Part shown: piece after piece, positions 3,616-63,754 of the stretch
Layout: each line of letters opens with the position of its first letter
Position numbering within the stretch: position 1 is the first letter of the stretch
Sequence record: OM386663.1
From: Escherichia phage vB_EcoM_ESCO49
Direction: 5' to 3' (one strand)
Length of the DNA: 64,000 nucleotides
Notes under the pieces: generated by a model
What the model was told of the DNA's origin: nothing
Seen by the model: the letters and a program-made list of their open reading frames with translations, nothing else
Database searches by the model: none
Program-made: the position numbers and the translations under genes

Positions 3616-4173
3616 TTACTTTCTCAGTGGATGAATAAAGAATGCCAACATAACTCTTTCCCTTGAGAATGCTCTTTCTTCTGGGACAACACTTTTTAGT
3701 TTCCATCCAATATAAATTCTCCAGTAAAACTGTTTACCAAAGATTTTAATTGATGGGATAAAAGCGAATAATCCCCAAGCATTGCTATTCCACATTAGGA
3801 GATAACCAGTCTGATTATCTTCAGGGTCAGAACTTACGCTGATATTACCTTTCCACTTAGTAACATCTTTTACATCTCTTCCTAATACATGGTAAGAGAA
3901 GTTATAAGCTTTGTTTCTCCAGAGCCATCCAACTCTCTGCATGTAGACACCCAGCTTACCAATCTTTCTAATCTTAGCCCATCTTTTAACGTGGCCTTCA
4001 TCACCATCAATCGGGTTGTCATAGGTCTCCATCCATCTGAATCCAAAAGGTAGATGCCCTTTCTTCTCACTGTAGAATGGAACCACGAAAGGTGCTAAGA
4101 TGACTGCTAGGGTTGCTGCAAATGGTTCTAGTAAAGCTAGGAAAATCCATGAAGCATACTTCAAATATCTCAT
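3616..4173 (-). CDS. hypothetical membrane protein embedded in the tRNA cluster
   Basis: 185-aa ORF with a hydrophobic N-terminal segment (WIFLALLEPFAATLAVILAPFVVPF); fills the gap between tRNAs without overlapping them. Confidence 0.35.
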   Translation of the reverse strand: MRYLKYASWIFLALLEPFAATLAVILAPFVVPFYSEKKGHLPFGFRWMETYDNPIDGDEGHVKRWAKIRKIGKLGVYMQRVGWLWRNKAYNFSYHVLGRDVKDVTKWKGNISVSSDPEDNQTGYLLMWNSNAWGLFAFIPSIKIFGKQFYWRIYIGWKLKSVVPEERAFSRERVMLAFFIHPLRK

Positions 4174-6278: not shown

Positions 6279-6366
6279 TGGTGTGCCGTGTAGGAGTCGA
6301 ACCTACCGAGTCTCAATGACAAGGGATTTACAGTCCCCACCGCTACCATCTACGGGATAACGACAC
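6279..6366 (-). tRNA. tRNA-Tyr (anticodon GUA), type II
   Basis: CCA encoded; perfect T-arm GTAGG/AGTCGAA/CCTAC; 3-bp D-stem; anticodon stem GGGGA/UCCCU, loop CUGUAAA; about 15-nt variable arm. Confidence 0.6.
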
Positions 6367-6435
6367 ATCTAATTTCTATTCAGGCTAAGGACTTGCACCT
6401 TACAAATCGGTGAGTAATCGCTTCTCTCCTAAATT

Positions 6436-6512
6436 TGGCGGTTAGTCAGGGATTCGAACCCTGTGCCATTCGCTTAACAGGCGACCGCACATACCTTATG
6501 TGCTTCCTAACC
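6436..6512 (-). tRNA. tRNA-Asn (anticodon GUU)
   Basis: CCA encoded; perfect T-arm CAGGG/ATTCGAA/CCCTG; acceptor 6 bp; anticodon stem UCGC/GCGA, loop CUGUUAA. Confidence 0.6.
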
Positions 6513-6597
6513 ATGTTTAGTATTACCAGACCGTATCTTTCAATTTTTTCTGCTAAAAATTTAATAAATATTGCTGTAAACGGTCTTCTGTAAAATT

Positions 6598-10171: not shown

Positions 10172-10546
10172 ATGCAAGCTAAGAGTGCAAAAGACTTTTA
10201 TTGCTTCCTACAAACCTATATCAATTCCGTGCAAAATGGTGAAAGGTACAACCTTAATGATGTTATCCCAACACCTTTGACATGGAGGCTTGATAAATGG
10301 CCTGAAGTAGAAATTACACCAACAAGCGAACAGTGTACCTACAATCCTGAAATCAATCTTCCAGACTCTGAGAATCTATTATATCCAATGTTCCATATTG
10401 TTGGTCTTGGAAGATTTCTTATGGATATCCAGTATGTAATTGGTAAAGATTATAAGGTTAAAGGTATTGTTGTTGGTGATGTATCTCCGCATCACAAAGG
10501 TTATTTTAGACTAAACGCACATTTAGAGGCTAAAAGAAATGATTAA
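10172..10546 (+). CDS. hypothetical protein, paralogous to the N-terminal domain of the next gene
   Basis: 124 aa; shares a conserved block with the 10539..11672 product (FLMDIQYVIGKDYKV versus FFMDLQYAIINDKDV). Confidence 0.5.
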   Translation: MQAKSAKDFYCFLQTYINSVQNGERYNLNDVIPTPLTWRLDKWPEVEITPTSEQCTYNPEINLPDSENLLYPMFHIVGLGRFLMDIQYVIGKDYKVKGIVVGDVSPHHKGYFRLNAHLEAKRND

Positions 10547-11672
10547 AGCAAAGACTTACCCAGACTTCAAAGAGTTTGTGAATGGCTTCGTTGCAAATGT
10601 AAAGGCTGGTAAGAGATATGATTTTAGAACATATCAGGAGGCTATTTTACCGCTTACCTATAGTTCATATTGGCCTGAAGCTGATATTGCAGAAGTTGAG
10701 GAGTTTGACTACGAGCCAGACTACAAAGTTCCATTTAGTGATGAGTTGCTTTACAGCATCGGTGCTCAAATGAGGACTTCTGACTTCTTCATGGACTTAC
10801 AATATGCAATTATCAATGATAAAGACGTTGATACGGTTTATTGTGAATGGTTGGCAAGAGTTAAACCATTCTCAATGCTGAATGCTAAGTTGAAGGATGC
10901 TATCAAGCCACCAGTAATCACTCAGCAGCCAACTAATCAAACAGTAAATGAAGGTGGTACACTTACCCTAAGTGTTGTTGCAACGAATGCTACTGGATAT
11001 CAATGGAAAAAGGATGGTGAGGATATCACTAGTGCCACATCTGCAACCTACACCAAAGAAAGTGCAACCACTGCTGATGCTGGTTCTTATACTTGTGTTG
11101 TGTCTGGAGAGGCTGGTACAAGTGTTACCTCAGATGCGGCAACAGTCACTGTCAACGCACTGCCTGTGATTACACAGCAACCTTCTAGCCAGACCATCAA
11201 TGAGGGTGGAAACATCAGCTTGGAAGTGACTGCAACAGGTGCAACAGGCTATCAGTGGAAGAAAGATGGTTCTGACATTCCTTCGGCTACAGAGGCCACC
11301 TATAGCAAGTCTGGTGCGCTTCCAGCAGATGCAGGTTCATATACTTGCGTTGTAACAGGTGCAGGTGGTTCTGTGGAATCTGATGCTGCAACAGTTACTG
11401 TGAACGCACTTCCAGTAATTACTCAACAGCCAACCAATCAAGAAATCACTGAAGGTGATACCTTAACGCTGAGTGTTGAGGCAACTGGTGCAACAGGTTA
11501 CCAGTGGAAGAAAGGTGAGGAAGACATCCTCGATGCAACTGCTGCAACTTACACCAAAGAAGATGCAACCGCTGCTGATGCAGGAAGCTACACCTGTGTA
11601 GTTACTGGTGCAGGTGGCTCTGTAACATCTGATGCAGCAACAGTTACAGTTAACCCAGCAGGGGAGGCATAA
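10539..11672 (+). CDS. protein with three tandem Ig-like repeats
   Basis: 377 aa; three near-identical about 82-aa repeats (PVITQQP(T/S)NQ...ATGYQWKKDG...AGSYTCVV(T/S)G...DAATVTVN) typical of an Ig I-set-like fold. Confidence 0.6.
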   Translation: MIKAKTYPDFKEFVNGFVANVKAGKRYDFRTYQEAILPLTYSSYWPEADIAEVEEFDYEPDYKVPFSDELLYSIGAQMRTSDFFMDLQYAIINDKDVDTVYCEWLARVKPFSMLNAKLKDAIKPPVITQQPTNQTVNEGGTLTLSVVATNATGYQWKKDGEDITSATSATYTKESATTADAGSYTCVVSGEAGTSVTSDAATVTVNALPVITQQPSSQTINEGGNISLEVTATGATGYQWKKDGSDIPSATEATYSKSGALPADAGSYTCVVTGAGGSVESDAATVTVNALPVITQQPTNQEITEGDTLTLSVEATGATGYQWKKGEEDILDATAATYTKEDATAADAGSYTCVVTGAGGSVTSDAATVTVNPAGEA

Positions 11673-12136
11673 TGCAACTCTCAAGAAAAGGCTTAGAAGC
11701 TATTAAGTTCTTTGAAGGTCTTAAGCTAGAGGCTTACGAAGATTCTGCTGGAATCCCTACAATTGGGTACGGAACAATCCGTATTTCTGGCAAACCTGTT
11801 AAGATGGGTATGAAGATTACCGCTGAACAAGCTGAACAGTATCTTCTTGCAGATGTTGAAAAGTTCGTTGCAGCAGTGAACAAAGCCATCAAGGTTCCAA
11901 CTTCTCAGAATGAGTTTGACGCACTTGTAAGTGAAACATACAACATTGGCATCACAGCTATGCAGGATTCCACATTTATCAAGCGCCACAATGCTGGTAA
12001 TAAGGTCGGTTGTGCAGAAGCTATGCAGTGGTGGAACAAGGTTACAGTCAAAGGTAAGAAGGTCACTTCAAACGGACTGAAAAACAGACGTAGAATGGAA
12101 GCTGACATTTATCTTGACAGTGTATACCCAAAGTAA
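11672..12136 (+). CDS. lysozyme, glycoside hydrolase family 24 (endolysin)
   Basis: 154 aa; GH24 signature FEGLKLEAYEDSAGIPTIGYGT with the catalytic Glu context, as in T4 E and lambda R. Confidence 0.75.
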   Translation: MQLSRKGLEAIKFFEGLKLEAYEDSAGIPTIGYGTIRISGKPVKMGMKITAEQAEQYLLADVEKFVAAVNKAIKVPTSQNEFDALVSETYNIGITAMQDSTFIKRHNAGNKVGCAEAMQWWNKVTVKGKKVTSNGLKNRRRMEADIYLDSVYPK

Positions 12137-14802: not shown

Positions 14803-15017
14803 AAAAATTAACTACAGTTGAAGATTACTACAAACTGTCCTTGTTAGAACAGTATCGCAGAAGCCAGAATATCAGAAAATGCTACGGTAGACACGCTGAA
14901 TGTGACTTTTACCATTGCTATGATGCAGATTTAAAAGGTGTAACACCTAGAGGTAAAGTCCTACAAAGGTTTGTTGACCTTGAATGGAACAAACGATTGA
15001 GAGAGGTTGGAAAATGA
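14799..15017 (+). CDS. hypothetical protein
   Basis: 72-aa ORF; ATGA overlap with the upstream gene. Confidence 0.35.
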   Translation: MKKLTTVEDYYKLSLLEQYRRSQNIRKCYGRHAECDFYHCYDADLKGVTPRGKVLQRFVDLEWNKRLREVGK

Positions 15018-15517
15018 TTTACGAAGAAAGATACAAGATAGATTACCAGAAGACTGGTCATCATGTCTCCCTAAGAGTAACAAAACCGAATGGAGATACC
15101 GGTATCATAGCACATTTTGGTGGTGATTATTGGTACGGTACAGGTTGCTTTGAAGGCTACACTCAAGAATACTTGAAAGCTTTCTACAGAGACTTTACAA
15201 ATGACTACAACAGGCTTGTTGACGAAAAGAATAAGTGCATTAAGCATGAACACCGTGCCAGAGGTTGCCTAAGTATTGTTATGGTACTGGCGTTCTTCTT
15301 AGCAATGTTACTGACAGTATCAGTAATTAGCTGCATAGCTCAAGATTTGACAATTACACAGATTACTGCAAAGCTACATGATATCTGGTACTTGTATGTT
15401 GTTCCTTTAGCTGGTATCATCATCTCACTAATGAGGTTCAGAGTTCATAAGAAACGACTTAAGGACTCTGAAGTTAAACTTGAAGAGGTAAGTAAAGAAT
15501 GCAACCTACAATTATAG
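14984..15517 (+). CDS. hypothetical protein with C-terminal transmembrane segments
   Basis: 177 aa; hydrophobic stretch LSIVMVLAFFLAMLLTVSVISCIA and a second one near the C-terminus. Confidence 0.45.
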   Translation: MEQTIERGWKMIYEERYKIDYQKTGHHVSLRVTKPNGDTGIIAHFGGDYWYGTGCFEGYTQEYLKAFYRDFTNDYNRLVDEKNKCIKHEHRARGCLSIVMVLAFFLAMLLTVSVISCIAQDLTITQITAKLHDIWYLYVVPLAGIIISLMRFRVHKKRLKDSEVKLEEVSKECNLQL

Positions 15518-22149: not shown

Positions 22150-22482
22150 TCAAGCATTTTGTTTTCGTTTGCTCATTTCTTGAGCAATTACAGCGTAGTA
22201 GTCTTTTAAGTCACTGGTATTTAAAGCATTTATCAGGGAATTATAATCATCAACTAACTGAAAATCATCTTTGAAGATGTCACTAATCTGGTATGTTCTC
22301 GCTTTAAATCTGAAGCTCATCTCTAGCCGCTTTATTTGCTCATCACTTAAACGCTCCAGGAAGCTCATTACAAGGCTATTATTAACCTGTTGTGTGATAG
22401 CCTTATCTGCTAAATTATAGGCTTTATATGCCTTATACAGCGCGAAAATGGCTATAATGGCGGTGACGCCGGTCATTAACAT
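22150..22482 (-). CDS. small membrane protein (array gene 9)
   Basis: 110 aa; N-terminal transmembrane helix LMTGVTAIIAIFALYKAY; its ATG overlaps the stop of a 26-codon upstream ORF. Confidence 0.5.
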   Translation of the reverse strand: MLMTGVTAIIAIFALYKAYKAYNLADKAITQQVNNSLVMSFLERLSDEQIKRLEMSFRFKARTYQISDIFKDDFQLVDDYNSLINALNTSDLKDYYAVIAQEMSKRKQNA

Positions 22483-23716: not shown

Positions 23717-23923
23717 TTAGATATCGTAGTAATAAACTGCTGTCTGTCTTATGTGCTTTCTTGTGTTTCTTGTAAGGTAGCAATTAGAGTTTATAGCCGT
23801 TTCTACATAATTGCAATAGTCAGACTCTGAAATTCTGGACCATGCGCCGCAAATTTGCATGTAAAAACGTTTTACATTTGTGTTAACGTTAGTTGTGACC
23901 ATCAATTCACGACCGTATAGCAT
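23717..23923 (-). CDS. small hypothetical protein (array gene 12)
   Basis: 68-aa ORF starting at the conserved leader. Confidence 0.45.
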   Translation of the reverse strand: MLYGRELMVTTNVNTNVKRFYMQICGAWSRISESDYCNYVETAINSNCYLTRNTRKHIRQTAVYYYDI

Positions 23924-24159: not shown

Positions 24160-24370
24160 GACATCCCCACCTACACCCACCTACCTGCACAATTCTAAAA
24201 TGATTTTTCTTGCCCGACCTGATTTTTCTCTGCACGTTTTGAAAATGAAAAAGCTCTTTGGAGATTACCTGCACAGTTTGAAAATGAATTTTCTCTTTGG
24301 AGTTCAAGATTTTCTCTACAGATTTCTCTATAGAAATATACCTGCACAATTCTGAAATGAAAAAGCCCTC
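24160..24370. repeat. three direct repeats of about 22 bp, ACCTGCACA(A/G)TT(C/T)(T/G)AAAATGA
   Basis: Copies at about 24184-24205, 24271-24292 and 24342-24363 in an intergenic region; track ORFs here are repeat artefacts. Confidence 0.5.
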
Positions 24371-24434
24371 CTTACCTGAAAAAATCTACCAGATAAGAAA
24401 GGCTTAGTCTATTGTGAATATTATACAGAGTTTC

Positions 24435-25220
24435 TTAGTTCTTTGCGTCTAAGAAGGTTACTTCCGGTGAAGAGAAGACCGTCTCAATATCCTCATCAGT
24501 TCTTGCATAGATGTATGTATCTGCATCACTGCCAAATGTTACAGCTATCCTGTGATTGCTCTTCGACAGGTGGGTAACTAGAGCGTTACTTAGAGACATC
24601 TTTTCAACCGGAGGGTTACTTTGATGTATCTTACCTTTTCTTCGTCTGAAGAGGGTAACTGTATTGTCCGTGAACACAACTACACCTGCAAAGTATTCTG
24701 GTTCACAGTAGTTTTTCCAACCTGAGTGTAACTCGTTGTACATCTCTGTCTCGTAGACATACAGATAAACATCTACGCTCTTCATAACCTGATTGATGAT
24801 AACTGTGACAGCTTGAGGGTCCAGCCCACCGATACCTGCACCAATCATAGGTAGGCCAACCTTCTTCAACTGGTTAACTTCACAGTATCTGTTAAGTTGC
24901 TTCAAAGATGACTCTAAAGCACTGTATCGGGCGTCTTTACCAGTCTTAAGCTGAGTGTAAAGGTTAGCTATACGACCTTGTTTTAAACGTGCTACAGAGA
25001 AGTTACCCAGTAAATTTTCACAGGGTTTGTGGCCTATACCACCTGCATAGATGTAAACTTCTGTATCGGTCTCATATGCTTTTGGGTAAAGTTTAGAAAT
25101 CTTGTCAGCGATACCTGCACCCATTAAATTCATACAGTTGCAACCGTGACCAATGATGTCAAACTTACCTTTATCAAAGGCGTCAAAGATATCACCATTG
25201 ATGATTTTTACAATACCCAT
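24435..25220 (-). CDS. macro-domain protein (TARG1/DarG type, ADP-ribose binding or hydrolysing)
   Basis: 261 aa; N-terminal IINGDIFDAFDKGKFDIIGHGCNCMNLMGAGIADKISKLYP matches the NC..MGxGIA...YP pattern of TARG1/DarG-type macro domains (pattern recall, no alignment run). Confidence 0.5.
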   Translation of the reverse strand: MGIVKIINGDIFDAFDKGKFDIIGHGCNCMNLMGAGIADKISKLYPKAYETDTEVYIYAGGIGHKPCENLLGNFSVARLKQGRIANLYTQLKTGKDARYSALESSLKQLNRYCEVNQLKKVGLPMIGAGIGGLDPQAVTVIINQVMKSVDVYLYVYETEMYNELHSGWKNYCEPEYFAGVVVFTDNTVTLFRRRKGKIHQSNPPVEKMSLSNALVTHLSKSNHRIAVTFGSDADTYIYARTDEDIETVFSSPEVTFLDAKN

Positions 25221-25421
25221 TTAACATCTCTCCCAAGATTCTTTATCTTCTGAAGGCTTTACACGTTGCCCTTCGTGGTCTACCCAGATGCACCCACAGC
25301 CTTCACAGATTACTGGCATTGCATAACCAGCTTTAAAGTCATCTTCAGTGATAAGACCTTTTAAGTCACCTGTATCACGTCCAAACATTTCGATAGAACA
25401 GTCTTTGCAGAAGTCAGCCAT
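25221..25421 (-). CDS. small Cys-rich (zinc-binding-like) protein
   Basis: 66 aa with CxxC ... CEGCGC cysteine pairs. Confidence 0.4.
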   Translation of the reverse strand: MADFCKDCSIEMFGRDTGDLKGLITEDDFKAGYAMPVICEGCGCIWVDHEGQRVKPSEDKESWERC

Positions 25422-25433
25422 ACAATATACACC

Positions 25434-25661
25434 TTATAGTTCGGTTTCTCGTAATTCTTTACCTTCATCATAGAAGCATTTATAGAATGTGTCTATAGAG
25501 ATTCTGGCAAAGGTGAGGTCTTCAAAGTATTCCTCTGGAGTTGTCCCTGTAAAACTAAAACTGTCGAGGCTGTAAAATGGTATCACTGTGTCGTGACTCA
25601 CGAAAACACATGCTGACGTGACTTCTCCAGTATCTTTGTCAATTACCTCTAGAGCTTTCAT
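25434..25661 (-). CDS. hypothetical protein
   Basis: 75-aa ORF co-oriented in a tight operon. Confidence 0.4.
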   Translation of the reverse strand: MKALEVIDKDTGEVTSACVFVSHDTVIPFYSLDSFSFTGTTPEEYFEDLTFARISIDTFYKCFYDEGKELRETEL

Positions 25662-25962
25662 AGCTTACCTTTTCGGTTAGTTCATATAAATCAACATGCT
25701 CAATACTGTCAATGTTGATATCAATCTTTTTGAAACGTTCTATCACTTCGTTGGCAGTCATCCATATCAGACACCAATGATTCTTGATGGATTCTTCAAG
25801 AAGGTCAACACAATCTTTAAAGGTTTTTGTATCACTCCTTGTTCCAACTACTGCAATTGTCCCATATAGCCACTTACCATTGTCATAAGTTACTTGTGCT
25901 ACACCAACCTCTTTACCTTTCTCGTAGTAAACAGCTACAAAGTCTCTTCCATTAATCTGCAT
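25639..25962 (-). CDS. hypothetical protein
   Basis: 107-aa ORF. Confidence 0.4.
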   Translation of the reverse strand: MQINGRDFVAVYYEKGKEVGVAQVTYDNGKWLYGTIAVVGTRSDTKTFKDCVDLLEESIKNHWCLIWMTANEVIERFKKIDINIDSIEHVDLYELTEKVSYESSRGN

Positions 25963-25964
25963 AG

Positions 25965-26234
25965 TTACTTCCTCGTTTTAAGAACTGCTAAGATTTCTTT
26001 AGAGTCTGGTAAGAACCATGTGTAGTGATTTTCTTTGATTTCTGGATGAGTGTCAACCTTTATTTTGCACTCTTTACCAACATGCTTAAGCTGTGCTGTG
26101 ACACCTTGCATAAAGATATGGCACATCACATTATCCATAATGGTTGGTGAGAAATCAATTCGCATATAAGTTTCTTTTGGTCGTGGTAACAGTAAGTAAC
26201 CCTCTACATAGAAAGTATCTTGGTTCTCTGTCAT
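25965..26234 (-). CDS. hypothetical protein
   Basis: 89-aa ORF. Confidence 0.4.
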   Translation of the reverse strand: MTENQDTFYVEGYLLLPRPKETYMRIDFSPTIMDNVMCHIFMQGVTAQLKHVGKECKIKVDTHPEIKENHYTWFLPDSKEILAVLKTRK

Positions 26235-26500
26235 TGCTGCTTATTCCCTAGTAAAATCATGTCAATAAGGTTGTTAGCTTTGATTGTGCACTGGTAAAAG
26301 CCGTCACGATAGAACTCAAGTGCTGCTGCTACATCACTGCCTGTGTTGCCTTTGATGATATACCGTGACTCTTCTTGAGTGTACTTATCACTCTCACTTA
26401 CTTGGGAGTTTTTGAATGTACTGCTCACTTTGTTCGTTGAACACCCTGACATAATTATCAGTAACACAAACATTATAAAACTCTGGCTTAGTTTTTTCAT
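26231..26500 (-). CDS. outer-membrane lipoprotein, o-spanin-like (Rz1-like)
   Basis: 89 aa; signal peptide with lipobox LIIMSGC; overlaps the 3' part of the upstream i-spanin-like gene in another frame. Confidence 0.55.
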   Translation of the reverse strand: MKKLSQSFIMFVLLIIMSGCSTNKVSSTFKNSQVSESDKYTQEESRYIIKGNTGSDVAAALEFYRDGFYQCTIKANNLIDMILLGNKQQ

Positions 26501-26741
26501 ATGTTAGTACCTCTTTTGTATGCTTATTCTTAGCAAGCACATCTTTCAAATCATTTTTGTAATTGGTGCTCAGTGTGGCTAACCCTTCCTGATAAGCATC
26601 TTTAGCAACACTTATGAGCTTCTGATTGTTTAGCTCAGCTTCAGCAACTTGATAGTCTCTGTAAGAGTATCCTCCCCAGACACCTGCCCCAACTAAGAAA
26701 ACAATTATGAAAGTGGCTTGACAGAACTCTTTAAATGTCAT
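26394..26741 (-). CDS. i-spanin-like protein (Rz-like)
   Basis: 115 aa; N-terminal transmembrane helix FIIVFLVGAGVWGGY followed by a coiled-coil-like region; overlaps the lipoprotein gene. Confidence 0.5.
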   Translation of the reverse strand: MTFKEFCQATFIIVFLVGAGVWGGYSYRDYQVAEAELNNQKLISVAKDAYQEGLATLSTNYKNDLKDVLAKNKHTKEVLTYEKTKPEFYNVCVTDNYVRVFNEQSEQYIQKLPSK

Positions 26742-26759
26742 TTAACAATCTCCTGAAAT

Positions 26760-26785
26760 GAAAAAGGCTCCCGAAGGAGCCTGTA
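26760..26785 (-). terminator. rho-independent terminator
   Basis: Hairpin AGGCTCC-CGAA-GGAGCCT; on the minus strand it is followed by a U-run (plus AAAAA 26760-26764). Confidence 0.5.
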
Positions 26786-26793
26786 TCTTAACC

Positions 26794-27258
26794 TTAACCG
26801 AGGACTTTAGCAAGGATATTCGCAGCCATCGAAGAGGCTTTTGCAGCAGCAACTACGCCAGCTTTGATAGCACTATCCTTGATAGCAGATACCGTTGCAG
26901 CATCAGTAAAGAGATAAGTAGTTGTTTTAGAACCACTTGTAAAGGAAAGCATAAGAGCAGTTTCCAGATTGAAAGAGCGATACGGAGCACCTTCTTTAAC
27001 GATACCTTCAGCACCTAACTCTGAAGCCATACCCATATCATAGATAGTCATCAGGTTTTCTTTGTGTGCAGTCGTTGAACCAGCACCTTTGACGTGTTTC
27101 TTAACATTCAGAAGAGCACGATACTCCCGGATGTTACCGTCTGCTTTTACATTGACAGCACGGAAGATTTTACCTTCAAAGTTGCTCTTGATAATGTTAC
27201 GAACTACTTCAGATTTGTTTGCTGTAACGTCCAGTGCTACCGTAATGATACTGTTCAT
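26794..27258 (-). CDS. hypothetical protein
   Basis: 154-aa ORF, Ala-rich C-terminus. Confidence 0.45.
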   Translation of the reverse strand: MNSIITVALDVTANKSEVVRNIIKSNFEGKIFRAVNVKADGNIREYRALLNVKKHVKGAGSTTAHKENLMTIYDMGMASELGAEGIVKEGAPYRSFNLETALMLSFTSGSKTTTYLFTDAATVSAIKDSAIKAGVVAAAKASSMAANILAKVLG

Positions 27259-27267
27259 AAGTTTCTC

Positions 27268-27963
27268 TCAATGTTTAACTAACATGGTTTTAATGTGTGG
27301 AAGGATTCTGTTTACCTTCTGCACATTCTTCTCTGTATCTTCTATAAAACATACTATATTAAAGTAAGGCAGAATGCAAGACTGAATCATCCTCACTTTC
27401 AAACTTTCTGCACTTATAGAGTTAGCCCCAAAACCACGCATAAAAAGCATGTAGTCATGCTCTATGTAATGCCTTAAAAACATCTCAGTAGGTATTCTCT
27501 GAGATTCACCCCTCGCTGTCAAGAGTCCAATGGCAGCATGGTTGGCAATTGCATCAATAATATTGAAAACATACGTTGGTTTTGCACTTACAGAGTCAAG
27601 CAAATTAGTGTACTGTGAAAATGAACCATCAATCAGTTCCGTTGAGCAATCTTCGTGATTAAAATTTGTAAGGACACCATCAATATCTGCTAAGATGAGG
27701 TTACCTTTTTCTACAAGGTCTTTATTGACTATGACTAAACTGTCACGTCTTACACCTATAGATTGCCCCGTCTCTTTATCCACAACGTTCACAATCGGTT
27801 CTGAAGTGTGGAACTCTTCAAGTGAACATACAACTTCTCTTGCAGTGTCTTCAAAATCCCTACACTGTTCTGGAGTCCATACACCGGAATCAAGACCTAA
27901 CTCATGAGGGTGTAAGTCATAAGCATGACACAGTACTTCATCAGACTTTCTTAATTTTTTCAT
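27268..27963 (-). CDS. HAD-superfamily phosphatase (possible 5'-deoxynucleotidase)
   Basis: 231 aa; HAD motif I ILADIDGVLTNF (DxDG). Confidence 0.5.
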   Translation of the reverse strand: MKKLRKSDEVLCHAYDLHPHELGLDSGVWTPEQCRDFEDTAREVVCSLEEFHTSEPIVNVVDKETGQSIGVRRDSLVIVNKDLVEKGNLILADIDGVLTNFNHEDCSTELIDGSFSQYTNLLDSVSAKPTYVFNIIDAIANHAAIGLLTARGESQRIPTEMFLRHYIEHDYMLFMRGFGANSISAESLKVRMIQSCILPYFNIVCFIEDTEKNVQKVNRILPHIKTMLVKH

Positions 27964-28489
27964 GGTTTACCTTAGAAATGTTTGTTGCAAATTCACATTG
28001 AGCAATAACTTTCATGTTGTTATAGACATCTTGAGAATATTTCTTAGCTTTAGGGATTCTGTACGAATACCCAGCATTATATGATGCTAAAACTTTTTGT
28101 AAAGTCTTCTTTGACTTTGGCTGACCATGCACCTTTGTCCAAAACTCAAGTTCTTTGTGCGTTTCCTTTGCAGCATAGTCAAAATCTTTTAAGAGTTTCT
28201 TTTTAGCCACATTAGGACTAATTTTGTTACGCTTTACAACAGTCTTCAAGTGATTCTGGAAAATACCATAGTCGTGGGTCTTTTTATTCTCTACCTTCAG
28301 ACCTAACTCTGACTCTTGTAAGGCTATAGCTGCTAGAGTAATACCCCAGCCTTTCCCCATATTATTCTCACCATACTGGTAAGCTTTTAACATGTTTACT
28401 TTTTGGCTAATTGATAGCTCTGGGCAGTCAACTGCATAAGATAAGTGTGCTGTAAACATTAAGCACAAACCTAGAATCAATTTCTTCAT
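27941..28489 (-). CDS. secreted lytic transglycosylase-like protein
   Basis: 182 aa; N-terminal signal peptide MKKLILGLCLMFTAHLSYA; ALQESELGL...YGIFQN resembles the SLT catalytic Glu and G(L/I)(M/F)Q motif. Confidence 0.45.
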   Translation of the reverse strand: MKKLILGLCLMFTAHLSYAVDCPELSISQKVNMLKAYQYGENNMGKGWGITLAAIALQESELGLKVENKKTHDYGIFQNHLKTVVKRNKISPNVAKKKLLKDFDYAAKETHKELEFWTKVHGQPKSKKTLQKVLASYNAGYSYRIPKAKKYSQDVYNNMKVIAQCEFATNISKVNHEKIKKV

Positions 28490-28589
28490 TGGTTCTCCTG
28501 TTTAGTTTATCGTGACAACAATTATACAGCACTCTGCACAAAATACAAATAAAAAAGGCCGCCGAAGCAGCCTTTTAAGAAATTACTTA

Positions 28590-29699
28590 TTAGATTTCAC
28601 GTTTACGTTGGGAGATAAGTTCTCCAGCAGTACCAACGATGACATGTAAAGCTTCAGTCTTGCCATCCCATGCTTTCAGCACTTTACGTTGATTATCAAC
28701 GATTGCTGCAACTTCATAACGAGACGAGCGCATCTTCATATCGTTGTAATCAGTTGGTACGGATACAACGTCTCGTGGATGGACACGAACCTTCAGAATT
28801 GTGTCACCTGAGAAGCAACGAACATAATCCCAAGCACCAACATGAAGACCTTGAGAGCAAGTCACGTTACGATTATTATCAACCATCCAACGTGGCATTT
28901 CTACAATGTTACCCAAATCATTAGGTACTCTGTGGGTGTGGGAGTCAACCAGCTTGCCTTCACGAGTAGATACTTTCTTCCAACCAATGATGTAGCCTTC
29001 TTCATCAATTTCAACATCAAGGTGAGATACAAAGCCCCAAAGTTGTTCTACAGAGTCTTTAGATGGGTTTTCCATCAGTTTTTCGAAGAACATCACGAGG
29101 CGTTCAAAACCTTTATCTCCAGTCTTCATCATGTGAAGAATACGGTCAACCAGAGTAGAACGCATCTCAACAGCACCGTAGAATAGCTTGTCACCTTTGA
29201 TTGTGATAGCGCCCTGAGTGAAGTTTTCGATAGACTTACGAATATTCATCAGTTCAAATGCTTTCTTGAACTCACCTTTCACAACATGAACTACAATCTC
29301 TTGATAGTTCGGATGAGTAGACTCAACAATTTCAGATTCTGAACCATAAGTCATAATTACAGAATCACCAGTAATCATGTACTCAATATTGTCATCTTTC
29401 TGCATAGCTTCATGCAGTTTATTTACCGGAGCTTTCTGTACAGACTCTTTAACGACCTTTTCAACTTGTTTGCCAGATTTCTTTTTAAAGGTCTTAGCAA
29501 CTTGCTTCAAAGTCTTCGTAGCTGGTGTAGAAGTCGCCTTCTTTTTCCCTTTTAAGGTTGCTTCATGACGCTCTACAGCACGACCAACTGAACGGGTTGA
29601 AGTATTAAATTTCTGTGCAATAGCTGTTTTAGTCAGCTTACCTTCTTTAACCAGTTTGTAAATTTCTGCGTCAATCTGTGCTTTAGTTTTAGTAGTCAT
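28590..29699 (-). CDS. rIIB: rIIB-like protein
   Basis: 369 aa; C-terminal region matches T4 rIIB as recalled (LFY...RSGLVDRIL, CSQGLHV, KVRVHPRDVVSVPTDYNDMKMR); lies directly downstream of the rIIA-like gene. Confidence 0.75.
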   Translation of the reverse strand: MTTKTKAQIDAEIYKLVKEGKLTKTAIAQKFNTSTRSVGRAVERHEATLKGKKKATSTPATKTLKQVAKTFKKKSGKQVEKVVKESVQKAPVNKLHEAMQKDDNIEYMITGDSVIMTYGSESEIVESTHPNYQEIVVHVVKGEFKKAFELMNIRKSIENFTQGAITIKGDKLFYGAVEMRSTLVDRILHMMKTGDKGFERLVMFFEKLMENPSKDSVEQLWGFVSHLDVEIDEEGYIIGWKKVSTREGKLVDSHTHRVPNDLGNIVEMPRWMVDNNRNVTCSQGLHVGAWDYVRCFSGDTILKVRVHPRDVVSVPTDYNDMKMRSSRYEVAAIVDNQRKVLKAWDGKTEALHVIVGTAGELISQRKREI

Positions 29700-29778: not shown

Positions 29779-32145
29779 TTAATCGTAAATTGTTGTACCT
29801 TCTGGAACACATTTCACATTAAAGCCTAAAAACTTACTCACTTCGATAGGTGATACCTTATTCCAATCTAAGTGTGAAAGCAAGAAGTTTTCTTGTTTTC
29901 TTTTTGAAAGATAGTTTGTCAGCTTGATAACCATGCGGTCACCTGCTTTCTTAATCTTTTTGTACAGTTTTGTGTCATTATCAAGGCATGACTTCAAATC
30001 CTGAAGAACACTGATAGTGTAAGTGTATGCAAACGGTGCAGCCACATACTGAATCTTACCAAACATTGCCTCAACAGCATCTTCATTCCCTTCTAAGAAG
30101 ATTGTCTTAATAGTATCCCTTGAATAACAATACCCGCGAGAAATCTTCCTGTTATTGAACGTAAAGTTTCTGGCAATAATCCTACTGCTTGTAAGGTCGA
30201 GGACACCATCCATGTAGATGCGTGTCATATACCTGTTATGGTTAATCCAATGAACATCAGTTAAGCTGTCGTTCAAGAGCTTCTCATCTACTTCAATCCA
30301 GTCTTCTGGTATCTTTTTCCAATTTGCTTTTCGGAAAACATAGACTGTCTTACCTGTAACATTAGCAACTGACTTAGCTACATCCTCTGGAGATGAGCAA
30401 AAACATCTACCATCAACTGTGTCACCTACTGCCTTAATATAAAGCTGAGGCTCTTCAATTGTGTCTAAGTCTTCTGACACCTCTTTGTATGAAGCTTTAG
30501 TTTCTGCTGGAACAGCTTTCCAGAGTTTTACAACACCTCTTACAGCTTCTTTACGCTGATAGTGATGTTCCTTATCAGACATCTTCACAATCTTTAACAA
30601 GCTTTTATCAAGTTTGTGCAGATTGATTAAGTCATCTAGCTCTTTCTCTGTAGAGAATACAAAGACAATACCATTGTATCTGTGAAACAGATTTGACTCA
30701 CTGGCGTAGTCTCGACATGCACCACGCAAAATTTGATTGCGTCCTACAGTCTTCTCAGTACCGTTTTTATTGCGACGGTCATTAATCACGAACAAAAACT
30801 GTTCAATTTGGCTTTTACGCATTGCACCAAAGATATTGAACATGCTTGCCTCTTGAGTGTAGGAAAGTGCTGTTACACGAATCTTACTCTCTAAAGAGTT
30901 GAACTTGACATAAGCAACTGGGTCATAAAGATAATCTACTTTAGGGATATTGTTCCCGTTCCTATCAACCTTAATATTGCCTTTACCGTCACGTTCATAA
31001 ATGACTGAGCCGTCTTCTGCGTAGATAATTCCACGACGAATGTTTAACAATTCTTCTTCCAGAGAATCAAGCTTAACGCCTCCCCACTCTAGCTTTGGAC
31101 ACACAGCATTAAACATCTCTCGTGAGTTCAAACGTAACTCTGCATAAGCCTGTGCAGCATCCATGAGTGTAGGTTGGCTATTAACTTTCTTGATAACATC
31201 CTTTGTAATTGCTTCAGTTATCTTTTTGGTAGCCTCGATGATAACATTTTTTGTCGTATCATTCATCTGCAATGCTTCACGAGAAGCTGCTATAGCAACT
31301 GAACCAATAGGCATGTAGATGTTTACAAGGTCTACGCTCCTACGGAAAAACTCTGGCAAGACTTTGAAGAAATCATCACCAAGTAATGCTTCCATGTTCA
31401 CTGGATAGGCAATATTACCCATCACCACATTAAACTCTATCCTATTACCACTAGAACGCCAGCTTTGCTTATGAATCATGGCATCATAAACACCTTCTTC
31501 ACGGGCAATGACGTTCATATCTGCTAATACATCGTCGTACTCAATATTACTTTCTGGTTTTACAGCAAAGTATGAGTACACATTTCCAGCTTCTTCAAAG
31601 AACTTTGAGATACGGTGGTCAGCAACTGCCACACGTACAGCTAAACCATTAGGTTCTTTTGTTGGGTTAGTGGTCAGCTTAGTTACTTGAGGGATACCAT
31701 TCTCAAGATAAACAGAGTACTTATTAACAACACCATCAACATAGCTAGATACTGTGAATGACTGAGCAATTGCAAATGGGGATTTTGAGCCGATACCCAT
31801 TGCACCAATGTAGTCATTAGAGTCATTCTTCGTAGAAGCCCCGTAGTTTAGGTACAAACTCATAACTTTATCATGAGTCAATCCAGTTCCAAAATCACGA
31901 ACTTCAAAGTAAGGCTCAAAACGAGTAGGTAAATGCACATGGAACGGGATATTCTCTTTTCCAGCTTCTTTCTGAGCATCTACTGCATTGCATGACAGTT
32001 CACGAATCACTGCCCTTTCTTTAAATGTGTATACACCAGAACTCAGAAGGCTGAACATTTCAGGTGTCATTGTAATCTGTGCTTGAGATGTCTCCAAAGA
32101 AGTTGAACTCTTAATCACTTCTGCGTGGTCATTTACCATGCGCAT
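29779..32145 (-). CDS. rIIA: rIIA-like protein (GHKL/Bergerat-fold ATPase N-terminus)
   Basis: 788 aa; N-box ERAVIRELSCNAVDA, G1 box RDFGTGL and G2 NDYIGAMGIGSKSPF, as in T4 rIIA. Confidence 0.75.
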   Translation of the reverse strand: MRMVNDHAEVIKSSTSLETSQAQITMTPEMFSLLSSGVYTFKERAVIRELSCNAVDAQKEAGKENIPFHVHLPTRFEPYFEVRDFGTGLTHDKVMSLYLNYGASTKNDSNDYIGAMGIGSKSPFAIAQSFTVSSYVDGVVNKYSVYLENGIPQVTKLTTNPTKEPNGLAVRVAVADHRISKFFEEAGNVYSYFAVKPESNIEYDDVLADMNVIAREEGVYDAMIHKQSWRSSGNRIEFNVVMGNIAYPVNMEALLGDDFFKVLPEFFRRSVDLVNIYMPIGSVAIAASREALQMNDTTKNVIIEATKKITEAITKDVIKKVNSQPTLMDAAQAYAELRLNSREMFNAVCPKLEWGGVKLDSLEEELLNIRRGIIYAEDGSVIYERDGKGNIKVDRNGNNIPKVDYLYDPVAYVKFNSLESKIRVTALSYTQEASMFNIFGAMRKSQIEQFLFVINDRRNKNGTEKTVGRNQILRGACRDYASESNLFHRYNGIVFVFSTEKELDDLINLHKLDKSLLKIVKMSDKEHHYQRKEAVRGVVKLWKAVPAETKASYKEVSEDLDTIEEPQLYIKAVGDTVDGRCFCSSPEDVAKSVANVTGKTVYVFRKANWKKIPEDWIEVDEKLLNDSLTDVHWINHNRYMTRIYMDGVLDLTSSRIIARNFTFNNRKISRGYCYSRDTIKTIFLEGNEDAVEAMFGKIQYVAAPFAYTYTISVLQDLKSCLDNDTKLYKKIKKAGDRMVIKLTNYLSKRKQENFLLSHLDWNKVSPIEVSKFLGFNVKCVPEGTTIYD

Positions 32146-32331
32146 AATACTTTCCTCTTAGTTTACTGTTAAATTACTTATTAAACATTCTACCAGAACC
32201 ACCACACATAGGGCAACAACCTGCTCTTGTATAACCTTCTCCATTACAGTAGTAACATCTCTTGTGCTCTGCATAGTACTTGCAAAGAAGGTAAACAAAA
32301 ACTGCTACACTACCAAGTGACAGTAAAATTT

Positions 32332-32667
32332 CTATCCAATATGCTTGCATGACTCACCTCTCATATTTTTGTAAAGGATAAAGCTTCTGTCATGGACGAT
32401 ACTTGTAGATACTGCAAAGTTACTTTCAAGCATCTGTTTGTTTGGATTGTAGAAGCTTTCTTTAAACTCGTCAAGCGCAAATTGGTGATGTTGTGGAAGA
32501 CCTTTTACACAGATTTTTATTGTGATTGCTGCTGCAATCTTGCCAGTCAGTTCTTCTTTAGCTGCTACTAAAATTTTGTTAAGAAACTTTTCACCATCTT
32601 CAGGTTTTTTAATGTTTTCCCAACGTTCTTCTAGGACAATGTTAATGTTCAACTCTTTGATTTTCAT
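32332..32667 (-). CDS. hypothetical protein
   Basis: 111-aa ORF. Confidence 0.45.
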   Translation of the reverse strand: MKIKELNINIVLEERWENIKKPEDGEKFLNKILVAAKEELTGKIAAAITIKICVKGLPQHHQFALDEFKESFYNPNKQMLESNFAVSTSIVHDRSFILYKNMRGESCKHIG

Positions 32668-41463: not shown

Positions 41464-41670
41464 TTAAATCTTTTTAGAAAACTTCGCAAAGAGTTCTCTT
41501 AGTTTTTCAGTGATACCTAACTGTATCTCTAATATTTCAAAGATAACCCATAGTAACATGGCTCCAAACAACGAACCTTGTTCAAAGTCAGTAAATAGGT
41601 TAACAATAAACATACCAATCACAATAGCTGGTGCATCAACAACCAAACCTTCCCAAATGCGTTTAAGCAT
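41464..41670 (-). CDS. small membrane protein
   Basis: 68 aa with two hydrophobic segments. Confidence 0.4.
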   Translation of the reverse strand: MLKRIWEGLVVDAPAIVIGMFIVNLFTDFEQGSLFGAMLLWVIFEILEIQLGITEKLRELFAKFSKKI

Positions 41671-63388: not shown

Positions 63389-63754
63389 TCAGTGTTCTTC
63401 TGTATTCTTCTCAGTAATAGCTTGGAGGGCTGATACTGATTGAGCCAGATTATTCACACTGTCAGAGAATTTATCAAGAGTTTTGGTAAGTTTTGCGTTT
63501 TCACCCTTAACATTCTCTAACTGAACTTTCTGGTTCTCCATCCCTAACTGAAGCAGTCTCATGTCAGACTGTAAATCACGAATAGCTGAATAGTTACTAC
63601 TTGTGTAATTATCCAACTGTTGTAACTTTGTTTTGACAGACACCTCTTGTTTACCACTTGACACTTGCATGGTGGTATACATTCCGATAACACTAAAAAT
63701 ACCAACTACAATTGCACCAATATTGTTTTTAAAAGCTTCCTCTAGCCACTTCAT
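63389..63754 (-). CDS. membrane-anchored coiled-coil protein
   Basis: 121 aa; N-terminal transmembrane helix IGAIVVGIFSVIGMY then heptad-rich region. Confidence 0.45.
   Translation of the reverse strand: MKWLEEAFKNNIGAIVVGIFSVIGMYTTMQVSSGKQEVSVKTKLQQLDNYTSSNYSAIRDLQSDMRLLQLGMENQKVQLENVKGENAKLTKTLDKFSDSVNNLAQSVSALQAITEKNTEEH

What the first reader, a model, noticed from the sequence alone, without database searches (positions are those of the whole stretch)
26231..28489. Second lytic-enzyme locus: overlapping spanin pair next to a signal-peptide transglycosylase, far from the GH24 lysozyme
The Rz-like gene (26394-26741) overlaps the Rz1-like lipoprotein gene (26231-26500). Two genes upstream is a secreted SLT-like protein, which would be a second muralytic enzyme in addition to the lysozyme at 11672 on the other strand. 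Either the phage has two endolysins or one enzyme serves entry or superinfection functions. No clear holin lies beside either locus.
Basis: partly seen in the sequence, partly recalled or inferred. Interest (0 to 1): 0.4.

Follow-up and report, generated by a model that had tools for sequence, protein, structure and literature searches.

The report
Felix O1-type spanins plus Vs.1-like transglycosylase
This stretch of a Felix O1-like phage holds an already catalogued overlapping spanin gene pair and, separately, an exported peptidoglycan-cutting enzyme that is the counterpart of phage T4's uncharacterised Vs.1 protein, so it is ordinary and not a second lysis cassette.

Summary
The window is a Felixounavirus, 98.9% identical to Escherichia phage ESCO50.

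**Spanins.** The 115-aa i-spanin (26394-26741, minus) and the 89-aa o-spanin lipoprotein (26231-26500, minus) overlap by 107 nt. Both frames are under selection. Homologues 28-35% identical sit in canonical lysis cassettes of other phages. The pair is already annotated in GenBank and listed as "overlapped" by Kongari et al. 2018.

**SLT-like protein (27941-28489).** It is a real GH23-fold protein:
- Glu59 is invariant in 152 of 152 family members.
- It has a cleavable signal peptide.

It is the orthologue of T4 Vs.1 (32% identity, E 2e-16). This family occurs in 2,142 phage records and has had a marginal SLT assignment since 2006, with no function that I could find.

**Not one unit.** Two unrelated genes and a terminator separate the SLT gene from the spanins, and another terminator precedes the SLT gene. 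The rIIB-SLT-phosphatase-h154 block persists in a relative that has no spanins there, and in Pectobacterium phage Wc4-1 the spanins follow the GH24 endolysin instead.

Scattered lysis genes and the missing holin are already published for this genus. The verdict is already known and of low interest. The one open question is what Vs.1-family enzymes do.

The parts
27941..28489 (-). Vs.1-family exported GH23 (SLT-like) lytic transglycosylase, 182 aa. The signal peptide is residues 1-19 (nt 28489-28433), with a predicted cleavage after S-Y-A19. The catalytic Glu59 codon is at 28315-28313. Motifs are E59-S60, G75-I-F-Q78 and S136-Y-N-A-G140.
   Evidence: - Pfam SLT E 9e-4, 19.2 bits, below the 21.3-bit cutoff; 14 of 15 relatives hit SLT, best 8e-12.
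- Invariant E59, Y137, G140 and Y151 in 152 sequences.
- AF2 model pLDDT 84.7.
- 32% identity to T4 Vs.1, E 2e-16.
28553..28576 (-). Intrinsic-terminator-like hairpin between rIIB and the SLT gene. A TATAAT box at 28526-28521, seen by eye with only a weak -35, follows it.
   Evidence: Terminator scan and sequence reading. The promoter scan did not call the promoter-like site.
27268..27963 (-). 'Polynucleotide kinase' of the annotations, 231 aa. It resembles only the HAD 3'-phosphatase half of T4 PseT (DIDGVL motif) and has no P-loop. It overlaps the SLT gene by 23 nt.
   Evidence: phrog_3970 E 2e-133. BLASTP to T4 PseT aligns only with residues 158-289.
26794..27258 (-). Conserved 154-aa protein of unknown function (phrog_2267). 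It is syntenic with the SLT and phosphatase genes across Ounavirinae.
   Evidence: It is 61% identical to SunLIRen gp8, and a homologue sits in the same position in L015.
26765..26782 (-). Intrinsic-terminator-like hairpin immediately upstream of the i-spanin gene.
   Evidence: It is also annotated as a terminator in phage Meda.
26394..26741 (-). i-spanin (Rz-like), 115 aa. It has an N-terminal transmembrane segment at about residues 6-26, a mostly helical periplasmic domain and a single periplasmic Cys92.
   Evidence: - phrog_1152 'Rz-like spanin' E 1e-41.
- Annotated as i-spanin in ESCO50, Meda and Maleficent.
- AF2 helices at 39-59, 65-80, 85-92 and 95-111, pLDDT 62.9.
- Conserved motif F-x-N-x-C-x-[ST]-[DP]-x-Y-x-x-x-[FY]-N-E in distant homologues.
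26231..26500 (-). o-spanin (Rz1-like) outer-membrane lipoprotein precursor, 89 aa. The lipobox is I-M-S-G-C20 (Cys codon 26443-26441) with Ser at +2. The mature protein is 70 aa, has no proline and has one further Cys (C71).
   Evidence: -.
- Annotated as O-spanin at the same coordinates in Meda and Maleficent.
- Homologues 28-35% identical, each with a lipobox and a conserved C-terminal motif, in six other phages.
26394..26500 (-). The 107-nt dual-coding overlap of the i-spanin 3' end and the o-spanin 5' end ('overlapped' architecture).
   Evidence: Reduced divergence and loss of third-position bias. Felix01 is listed under 'Overlapped' in PMC6139136.
11672..12136 (+). GH24 phage lysozyme, 154 aa, with no signal or transmembrane segment. 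It is the genus' experimentally supported endolysin.
   Evidence: - PF00959 E 6.7e-41 and phrog_7 endolysin.
- The paper on the CL1 phage lysin reports an expressed, purified N-acetylmuramidase validated by turbidimetric assay. Its domain class matches this gene; I did not align the two sequences.

Best explanation
The interval holds two functionally separate things inside a block of accessory genes that resembles the T4 early region, in a Felix O1-like myophage.

**(1) A two-component spanin pair in the overlapped architecture.**
- The i-spanin is anchored in the inner membrane by its N-terminal transmembrane segment. Its helical domain extends into the periplasm.
- The o-spanin is exported, lipidated on Cys20 and sorted to the outer membrane, because residue +2 is Ser and not Asp.
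- The two proteins bind through their periplasmic domains. Each probably forms a disulfide-linked homodimer through its single conserved periplasmic Cys.
- Once the holin-released GH24 endolysin (11672-12136) has removed the peptidoglycan meshwork, the complex fuses the inner and outer membranes. This is the last step of lysis.

**(2) A Sec-exported, signal-peptide-cleaved, single-domain GH23 lytic transglycosylase.**
- It is orthologous to T4 Vs.1.
- It is probably made from its own promoter after the rIIB terminator, and it reaches the periplasm without any holin.
- There it most likely cleaves MurNAc-GlcNAc bonds through Glu59 in a limited, non-lethal way.
- It acts as an accessory wall-remodelling factor, not as the lysis endolysin.

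**Shown here:** gene structure, dual coding, lipobox, signal peptide, catalytic motifs, fold, homology and synteny.

**Inferred:** membrane topology, disulfides, enzymatic activity, expression timing and biological role.
For: **Identity of the window**
- 98.9% identical to ESCO50. 252 Felixounavirus-type records cover at least 80% of the region.

**Spanins**
- phrog_1152 E 1e-41 for the i-spanin.
- Annotated as i-/o-spanin in ESCO50, Meda and Maleficent.
- Catalogued as overlapped spanins in PMC6139136.
- Dual-coding signature in the overlap.
- o-spanin homologues with a lipobox and a conserved Cys motif overlap an upstream TMD-helical gene in SunLIRen, EP335, Wc4-1, Isfahan and VLCpiS10a.
- In Wc4-1 the pair directly follows an endolysin 44% identical to this phage's GH24 lysozyme.
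- In VLCpiS10a it lies in a cassette with an annotated holin, and in Isfahan directly after a gene annotated as a TIGR02594-family protein.

**SLT-like protein**
- E59 152/152, S60 147/152, Y137, G140 and Y151 152/152. An N-terminal hydrophobic segment is present in 139 of 148.
- A-x-A-type cleavage sites are conserved in the alignment.
- 14 of 15 relatives hit PF01464.
- The family profile hits EtgA, E 7e-4.
- T4 Vs.1 match, E 2e-16.
- 2,142 phage records carry a match, and 1,265 50%-identity clusters match.

**Separation of the two**
- Terminators.
- The rIIB-SLT-HAD phosphatase-h154 block occurs without spanins in L015.
- In T4, vs.1 (about 62 kb) and pseT.3/pseT.2 (about 135 kb) are far apart.
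Against: - This protein's own Pfam SLT score (19.2 bits) is below the gathering cutoff (21.3), and a single-sequence search of the PDB found nothing.
- No enzymatic or genetic data for any Vs.1-family member were found in the library.
- The i-spanin model has low confidence (pLDDT 62.9). My heptad score could not demonstrate a coiled coil.
- The mature o-spanin has no proline, unlike lambda Rz1. T4 PseT.2 also lacks a proline-rich region (PMC6139136).
- Expression timing is inferred only from terminators and a by-eye -10 box.
- SLT and the spanins stay within about 1-2.5 kb of each other in Felixounavirus, Mooglevirus and Kolesnikvirus, so some functional link cannot be excluded.
- No holin has been identified, so the lysis pathway of this genus is incompletely understood.
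Confidence: 0.78

Rival explanations
1. The exported SLT-like enzyme is a second, holin-independent endolysin. It works with the nearby spanins as an alternative lysis module, which would explain why no holin can be found in Felix O1-like phages.
For: - It has a signal peptide and intact catalytic motifs.
- It lies 1.2 kb from the spanins in Felixounavirus and Mooglevirus, and within 2.5 kb in Kolesnikvirus.
- No holin has been identified in the genus (PMC6486253, PMC4837284).
Against: - T4 carries the orthologue Vs.1, yet T4 lysis is accounted for by T and E (PMC6832632). Loss of e blocks lysis (own knowledge, not checked here).
- Terminators and two unrelated genes separate SLT from the spanins.
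- The SLT block exists without spanins in L015.
- In Wc4-1 the spanins follow the GH24 endolysin.
- The GH24 lysozyme has no export signal. On the standard model of canonical endolysins, it therefore still needs a holin.
Confidence: 0.08
2. The Vs.1-like enzyme serves phage-phage or phage-host conflict and not lysis. It could alter or trim the peptidoglycan of the infected cell to hinder superinfecting phages, or it could counter an envelope-associated host defence.
For: - It sits among accessory genes of the T4 early-region type (rIIA, rIIB, macro-domain phosphatase, HAD phosphatase).
- It is exported independently of lysis.
- It is conserved in 2,142 records of virulent phage groups including Tevenvirinae, Ackermannviridae-type phages and Ounavirinae.
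Against: - There is no match to any PADLOC defence model.
- No literature supports this role.
- Known T4 superinfection functions are assigned to Imm and Sp (own knowledge), not to Vs.1.
Confidence: 0.12
3. The 89-aa lipoprotein is not a spanin. Instead it is a receptor-masking or superinfection-exclusion lipoprotein, like T5 Llp or Cor.
For: - The mature protein is proline-free and larger than lambda Rz1.
- Its best PHROG (phrog_4180) has no assigned function, and the match to a spanin PHROG is weak (E 2.5e-4).
Against: - In every homologue examined it overlaps the 3' end of a gene with a transmembrane segment and a helical domain.
- In three unrelated phages that pair lies next to an endolysin-type gene or an annotated holin.
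- The pair carries co-conserved Cys motifs.
Confidence: 0.02

Closest known systems
Felix O1 / FO1a / UAB_Phi87 overlapped two-component spanins (Kongari et al. 2018, PMC6139136; GenBank i-/o-spanin annotations in Meda, Maleficent, ESCO50)
   Same: It is the same gene pair. The o-spanin is 95-100% identical across Felixounavirus records, with the same coordinates and the same 107-nt overlap.
   Different: Nothing of substance. ESCO50 annotates the o-spanin from an internal Met (73 aa, starting MSGC...), which removes the signal peptide.
T4 PseT.3 / PseT.2 spanins
   Same: - The sizes are similar (117 and 99 aa).
- The o-spanin lacks a proline-rich region.
- The genes lie far from the endolysin and holin, next to the pseT-type gene among accessory genes (PMC6139136).
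   Different: - There is no detectable sequence similarity beyond the signal peptide.
- The T4 genes are in the separated architecture and lie upstream of pseT.
- In T4 the o-spanin has two Cys and the i-spanin has none. Here each subunit has one.
T4 Vs.1 (conserved T4-like ORF with marginal SLT similarity; Nolan et al. 2006, PMC1524935)
   Same: - 32% identity over the full length, E 2e-16.
- Same length (181 versus 182 aa) and an N-terminal signal peptide.
- E-S, G-x-F-Q and S-Y-N-x-G motifs are shared.
   Different: - The genomic neighbours differ: regB and vs in T4, rIIB and the HAD phosphatase here.
- The Felix O1 clade has an extra Cys22/Cys165 pair. I suggest, but did not test, that these form a disulfide.
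Specialised small lytic transglycosylases of secretion systems (EtgA; by recall also IagB, IpgF and VirB1) and family 1 housekeeping LTs (Slt70, MltC, MltE, MltF)
   Same: - The family profile hits EtgA.
- It is a small single-domain protein with a Sec signal, a single catalytic Glu followed by Ser, and an AYNxG-type motif.
   Different: - Every context I examined is a phage. The 'Campylobacter' homologue is on a jumbo-phage contig that carries chimallin.
- No secretion-system partner is present.
- The residue after the catalytic Glu that might serve as a second acid (D73) is not conserved in A1. From memory, EtgA uses a second acidic residue.

Membership tests
Two-component spanin (i-spanin / o-spanin) | The i-spanin has a single N-terminal transmembrane segment, with the rest of the protein periplasmic. 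| tested here: met
   Hydrophobic segment at residues 6-24, KD19 1.75, the only one in the protein. It is conserved in homologues. The orientation was not tested.
Two-component spanin (i-spanin / o-spanin) | The i-spanin periplasmic domain is alpha-helical with coiled-coil propensity. | tested here: inconclusive
   AF2 predicts helices at 39-59, 65-80, 85-92 and 95-111, but at pLDDT 62.9. A home-made heptad score did not beat shuffles, and it also failed for the positive control T4 PseT.3.
Two-component spanin (i-spanin / o-spanin) | The o-spanin has a lipoprotein signal (lipobox Cys) and a residue at +2 that allows outer-membrane sorting. | tested here: met
   MKK, hydrophobic core, I-M-S-G-C20, Ser21. 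A lipobox is present in all six distant homologues, with Ser, Thr or Met at +2 and never Asp. Processing itself is not testable here.
Two-component spanin (i-spanin / o-spanin) | The o-spanin gene is embedded in, overlapping or immediately after the i-spanin gene. | tested here: met
   107-nt overlap with a dual-coding signature. The same arrangement is seen in six other phages.
Two-component spanin (i-spanin / o-spanin) | At least one periplasmic Cys is available for homotypic intermolecular disulfides. | tested here: met
   i-spanin C92 and o-spanin C71, both within motifs conserved down to 27-35% identity. Disulfide formation itself is not testable here.
Two-component spanin (i-spanin / o-spanin) | Association with lysis genes, or functional complementation of lambda Rz/Rz1. 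| tested here: met
   Association holds through homologues: Wc4-1 has endolysin then i-spanin then o-spanin, VLCpiS10a has an annotated holin in the cassette, and Isfahan has a TIGR02594-family gene directly upstream. Complementation is not testable with these tools.
GH23 / Pfam SLT family 1 lytic transglycosylase | Catalytic Glu in an E-S motif. | tested here: met
   E59 152/152 and S60 147/152 in the family alignment.
GH23 / Pfam SLT family 1 lytic transglycosylase | Downstream G-L-M-Q-type and A-Y-N-x-G-type motifs. | tested here: met
   G75 144/152; Q78 is Q in 77 and H in 66; S136-Y137-N138-x-G140, with Y and G 152/152.
GH23 / Pfam SLT family 1 lytic transglycosylase | Score above Pfam's gathering threshold. 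| tested here: inconclusive
   This protein scores 19.2 bits against a 21.3-bit cutoff. 14 of 15 relatives match at E <= 0.01, best 8.2e-12.
GH23 / Pfam SLT family 1 lytic transglycosylase | Goose-lysozyme / SLT fold. | tested here: met
   [not shown]
GH23 / Pfam SLT family 1 lytic transglycosylase | Produces 1,6-anhydro-MurNAc products from peptidoglycan. | not testable with these tools
   Needs purified protein and muropeptide analysis.
T4 Vs.1 family | Full-length sequence similarity, the same size and an N-terminal signal peptide. | tested here: met
   BLASTP E 2e-16, 32% identity over residues 1-155, 182 versus 181 aa. tblastn hits fall on genes labelled vs.1 in JS10 and Acj9.
Canonical (holin-dependent) endolysin | A cytoplasmic enzyme without an export signal, usually in a cassette with a holin. 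| tested here: not met
   The SLT-like protein has a signal peptide and no holin neighbour. The GH24 lysozyme at 11672 meets the first criterion.
SAR (signal-anchor-release) endolysin | An uncleaved, weakly hydrophobic N-terminal transmembrane domain of about 18-20 or more residues. | tested here: not met
   The h-region is only about 13 residues (L4-L16) and is followed by S-Y-A|V. A-x-A-type sites are conserved in relatives. This was judged by inspection; no dedicated predictor was available.

The most novel reading that the evidence does not exclude
Vs.1-family proteins form a very widespread class of phage-encoded lytic transglycosylases that are exported through Sec. They are found in 2,142 phage records and 1,265 clusters at 50% identity, and I found no function reported for any member. 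Their real job may be neither endolysis nor entry. In Felix O1-like phages, where no holin has ever been identified, the enzyme could pre-condition or locally open the sacculus during infection. That role could be wall remodelling, a superinfection barrier or defence evasion. It could also contribute to a non-canonical route to lysis.
Probability: 0.2. Interest if true: 0.55.

Novelty: already known. Interest (0 to 1): 0.17.

Why it matters
For annotation it matters little. The spanins, the scattered lysis genes and the missing holin of Felix O1-like phages are already in GenBank records and in print.

What this check adds:
- The 'putative lysin' or 'hypothetical protein' next to rIIB is the Felix O1 counterpart of T4 Vs.1.
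- The family's catalytic Glu and its export signal are essentially invariant.
- The enzyme should not be counted as an endolysin or as part of a lysis cassette.

If someone determined what this exported enzyme does, the answer would apply to thousands of T4-like, Vi1-like, Felix O1-like and jumbo phages used in therapy and biocontrol.

Tried and rejected
- **Single-sequence phmmer of the SLT-like protein against the PDB:** no hits. Only the family profile reached EtgA and g-type lysozyme.
- **NCBIfam:** nothing meaningful for any of the locus proteins.
- **PADLOC defence models:** no hit for six locus proteins.
- **BLASTP of the spanins against T4 PseT.3 and PseT.2:** no similarity beyond the signal peptide. 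The shared neighbourhood with a pseT-type gene is therefore a resemblance and not homology of the spanins.
- **Home-made heptad (coiled-coil) score:** it did not discriminate even for T4 PseT.3, so I discarded it as a test.
- **Holin hunt:** every window ORF with a hydrophobic segment was listed. Six candidates (41464-41670, 14984-15517, 22150-22482, 63389-63754, 32174-32350, 3616-4173) match only PHROGs of unknown function or a DUF. In the two regions I searched against phage records they are labelled 'membrane protein' at most.
- **Was the 154-aa gene before Rz a diverged endolysin?** Wc4-1 has its endolysin in that position relative to the spanins. I rejected the idea: the Wc4-1 endolysin matches the window's GH24 lysozyme and not h154.
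- **Do bacterial Vs.1-like proteins point to a secretion-system origin?** I rejected this for the one case checked. The 'Campylobacter coli' homologue lies on a 214-kb contig that carries chimallin, which marks it as a jumbo phage.
- **Literature on Vs.1 function:** only the 2006 comparative-genomics remark was found. The T4 genome review (PMC150520) is not held.
Full report
**What the window is.** Megablast of 25900-28700 finds 257 phage records. 252 of them cover at least 80% of the query, and the best is Escherichia phage vB_EcoM_ESCO50 at 98.9% identity. Felix O1 itself is 96.1% identical. The window is therefore a Felixounavirus (Ounavirinae) genome segment.

All genes from 24.4 to 32.1 kb are on the minus strand. 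In transcription order they are:

| Gene | Coordinates | Size |
|---|---|---|
| rIIA | 29779-32145 | 788 aa |
| rIIB | 28590-29699 | 369 aa |
| SLT-like protein | 27941-28489 | 182 aa |
| 'polynucleotide kinase' | 27268-27963 | 231 aa |
| unknown (h154) | 26794-27258 | 154 aa |
| Rz-like | 26394-26741 | 115 aa |
| Rz1-like | 26231-26500 | 89 aa |
| unknown (h89) | 25965-26234 | 89 aa |
| three small ORFs | 25221-25962 | 66-107 aa |
| macro-domain protein | 24435-25220 | 261 aa |

**Checking the observation.**
- The Rz-like protein has one hydrophobic segment (residues 6-24) and no other.
- The Rz1-like ORF begins MKKLSQSFIMFVLLIIMSGC. It has a positively charged n-region, a hydrophobic core, a lipobox ending in Cys20 and Ser at +2. 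A GAGG ribosome-binding site lies 9 nt upstream of the ATG.
- The genes overlap by 107 nt.

That both frames are real is shown by substitution patterns against Citrobacter phage Maleficent:

| Region | Divergence | Changes at codon positions 1/2/3 |
|---|---|---|
| Rz-only | 22.4% | 14/10/30 |
| Overlap | 12.1% | 4/5/4 |
| Rz1-only | 26.4% | 9/6/28 |

The lysozyme at 11672-12136 (+) is a GH24 phage lysozyme (PF00959, E 6.7e-41).

**The spanins.**
- The i-spanin matches phrog_1152 'Rz-like spanin' over its whole length (E 1e-41).
- The two genes are annotated as i-spanin and o-spanin in ESCO50, Meda and Maleficent.
- Kongari et al. 2018 list Felix01, FO1a and UAB_phi87 among the 'overlapped' two-component spanins (PMC6139136).

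Independent support comes from distant homologues. tblastn with the o-spanin finds 371 records, including 114 below 60% identity. I examined six of these: SunLIRen, EP335, Maleficent, Wc4-1, Isfahan and VLCpiS10a.
- In each, the homologous frame starts inside the 3' end of an upstream gene that has a transmembrane segment and a helical domain.
- Each carries a lipobox.
- Each ends in a conserved motif of the form L-E-[FW]-[WY]-x-D-x-[YF]-x-x-C-...-N-x-L-[IV]-D.
- The upstream protein carries F-x-N-x-C-x-[ST]-[DP]-x-Y-x-x-x-[FY]-N-E.

In Pectobacterium phage Wc4-1, also an Ounavirinae, the pair directly follows an endolysin that is 44% identical to this window's GH24 lysozyme. In Klebsiella phage VLCpiS10a it lies in a cassette with an annotated holin. 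In Proteus phage Isfahan it directly follows a gene annotated as a TIGR02594-family protein.

An AF2 model of the i-spanin is helical in its periplasmic part but has low confidence (pLDDT 62.9). My own heptad score was uninformative even for T4 PseT.3, so a coiled coil is not demonstrated.

The mature o-spanin has no proline. That differs from lambda Rz1 but parallels T4 PseT.2, which lacks a proline-rich region (PMC6139136).

**The SLT-like protein.** On its own it falls just under Pfam's SLT threshold (19.2 against 21.3 bits), and it finds nothing in the PDB by sequence.

Relatives settle the matter:
- In an alignment of 15 homologues, E59, G63, Q78, Y137, N138, G140 and Y151 are invariant. 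All full-length members have an N-terminal hydrophobic segment, and the closer relatives show A-x-A-type cleavage sites.
- 14 of the 15 hit PF01464, best E 8.2e-12.
- The family profile hits EtgA (E 7e-4) and goose-type lysozymes in the PDB.

tblastn against phages finds 2,142 records. Most are T4-like phages, where the hit lies on the gene labelled vs.1. Direct comparison with T4 Vs.1 gives 32% identity and E 2e-16 at the same length.

An exhaustive HMM search finds 1,265 clusters at 50% identity. In an alignment of 150 of them plus T4 Vs.1 and the query:
- the catalytic Glu is present in 152 of 152;
- Ser60 in 147;
- Tyr137, Gly140 and Tyr151 in 152;
- 139 of 148 have a hydrophobic N-terminus.

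One homologue is labelled as Campylobacter coli, but it lies on a 214-kb contig that encodes chimallin, so it is a jumbo phage.

[quoted passage not shown] Searches for functional work found none.

**Are the SLT gene and the spanins one locus?** The evidence says no.
- Intrinsic-terminator-like hairpins lie after rIIB (28576-28553) and directly before the i-spanin gene (26782-26765). The second is also annotated as a terminator in Meda.
- Two unrelated genes lie between SLT and the spanins. One is a homologue of only the HAD phosphatase half of T4 PseT.
- The order rIIB-SLT-phosphatase-h154 is kept in Erwinia phage SunLIRen, with three extra genes before the spanins.
- The same order is kept in a metagenomic relative (L015), where no lipobox ORF and no spanin pair follows.
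- In Wc4-1 the spanins are at the endolysin locus.
- In T4, vs.1 and the spanins pseT.3/pseT.2 are about 73 kb apart.

The block looks like a shared set of accessory genes of the kind found in the T4 early region: rIIA, rIIB, vs.1, a pseT-like phosphatase and a tk.4-like macro domain. In some Ounavirinae lineages the spanins happen to reside in it.

**Endolysin, holin and what is already published.**
- A paper on phage CL1, a Felixounavirus in this collection, reports an expressed and purified N-acetylmuramidase lysin validated by turbidimetric assay (PMC9156722). Its domain class matches the window's GH24 gene. I did not align the two sequences.
[quoted passage not shown] - My own scan found several small membrane proteins but none with a holin-family match.
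- T4 lysis from within is described in terms of T and E (PMC6832632). I take this as indirect evidence that a Vs.1-type enzyme is not the endolysin.

**Most likely mechanism.**
- *Spanins.* The i-spanin is anchored in the inner membrane and the lipidated o-spanin in the outer membrane. They form a complex across the periplasm that fuses the two membranes once the GH24 endolysin has cleared the peptidoglycan.
- *Vs.1-like enzyme.* It is exported by Sec, cleaved after Ala19 and released as a soluble periplasmic lytic transglycosylase that uses Glu59. It acts in a limited way as an accessory wall-remodelling factor.
- *Status of the steps.* The gene-level steps are shown here. Topology, processing, activity, timing and role are inferred.

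**Verdict.** The interpretation as a second lysis locus, or a second endolysin, is not supported. Everything except the role of the Vs.1-family enzyme is already known. Interest is low.

Noticed in passing
window 24180-24375 (intergenic, between the macro-domain gene at 24435-25220 and the small gene at 23717-23923): A cluster of about four direct repeats of roughly 30 nt. On the transcribed minus strand they read ...TCATTTT(C/A)(A/G)AA(T/C)TGTGCAGGTA. The core TACCTGCACARTT has three exact copies, and they occur only here in the 64-kb window. A strong sigma-70-like promoter (TTGACT-17-TAGTAT) lies just downstream on the minus strand, at about 24005-23977. A TGTGCAG word also lies upstream of the SLT gene (about 28539-28533). 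The function is unknown.
   Followed up: partly
window 27268-27963 (-): The gene annotated 'polynucleotide kinase' across the genus resembles only the HAD 3'-phosphatase half of T4 PseT (DIDGVL versus DVDGTL) and has no P-loop. It is probably a phosphatase and not a kinase. In phage Meda the gene is split by a confirmed stop codon (PMC6486253).
   Followed up: partly
L001 (ESCO50) 6332-6553, equivalent to window 26231-26452: In the closest relative's GenBank record the o-spanin starts at an internal Met (73 aa, beginning MSGC...). That removes the signal peptide. The 89-aa start at 26500 has the ribosome-binding site and the MKK n-region.
   Followed up: yes
window 41464-41670 (-), 14984-15517 (+), 22150-22482 (-), 63389-63754 (-), 32174-32350 (-): These are small conserved membrane proteins with no assigned function. 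One is 68 aa with two transmembrane segments and a charged C-terminus, next to the glutaredoxin gene. One is 177 aa with two C-terminal transmembrane segments, 3 kb downstream of the lysozyme. Two have a single N-terminal transmembrane segment followed by a helical tail. They are the obvious candidates for the genus' unidentified holin or antiholin.
   Followed up: partly
L010 (Pectobacterium phage Wc4-1) 2794-3776: In this Ounavirinae member the same lysozyme family and the same spanin family form a contiguous cassette of endolysin, i-spanin and o-spanin. The scattered arrangement in Felix O1-like phages therefore looks like the result of a rearrangement within the subfamily.
   Followed up: partly
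window 25965-26234 (-): An 89-aa ORF (phrog_4391, function unknown) starts 4 nt before the o-spanin stop codon (ATGA overlap), which suggests translational coupling with the spanin pair. It is conserved in Meda and Maleficent.
   Followed up: no
window 10539-11672 (+): A 377-aa protein with three Ig-like domains (PHROG 'tail protein' and Hoc-like decoration matches) ends exactly where the lysozyme gene starts, sharing nucleotide 11672.
   Followed up: no
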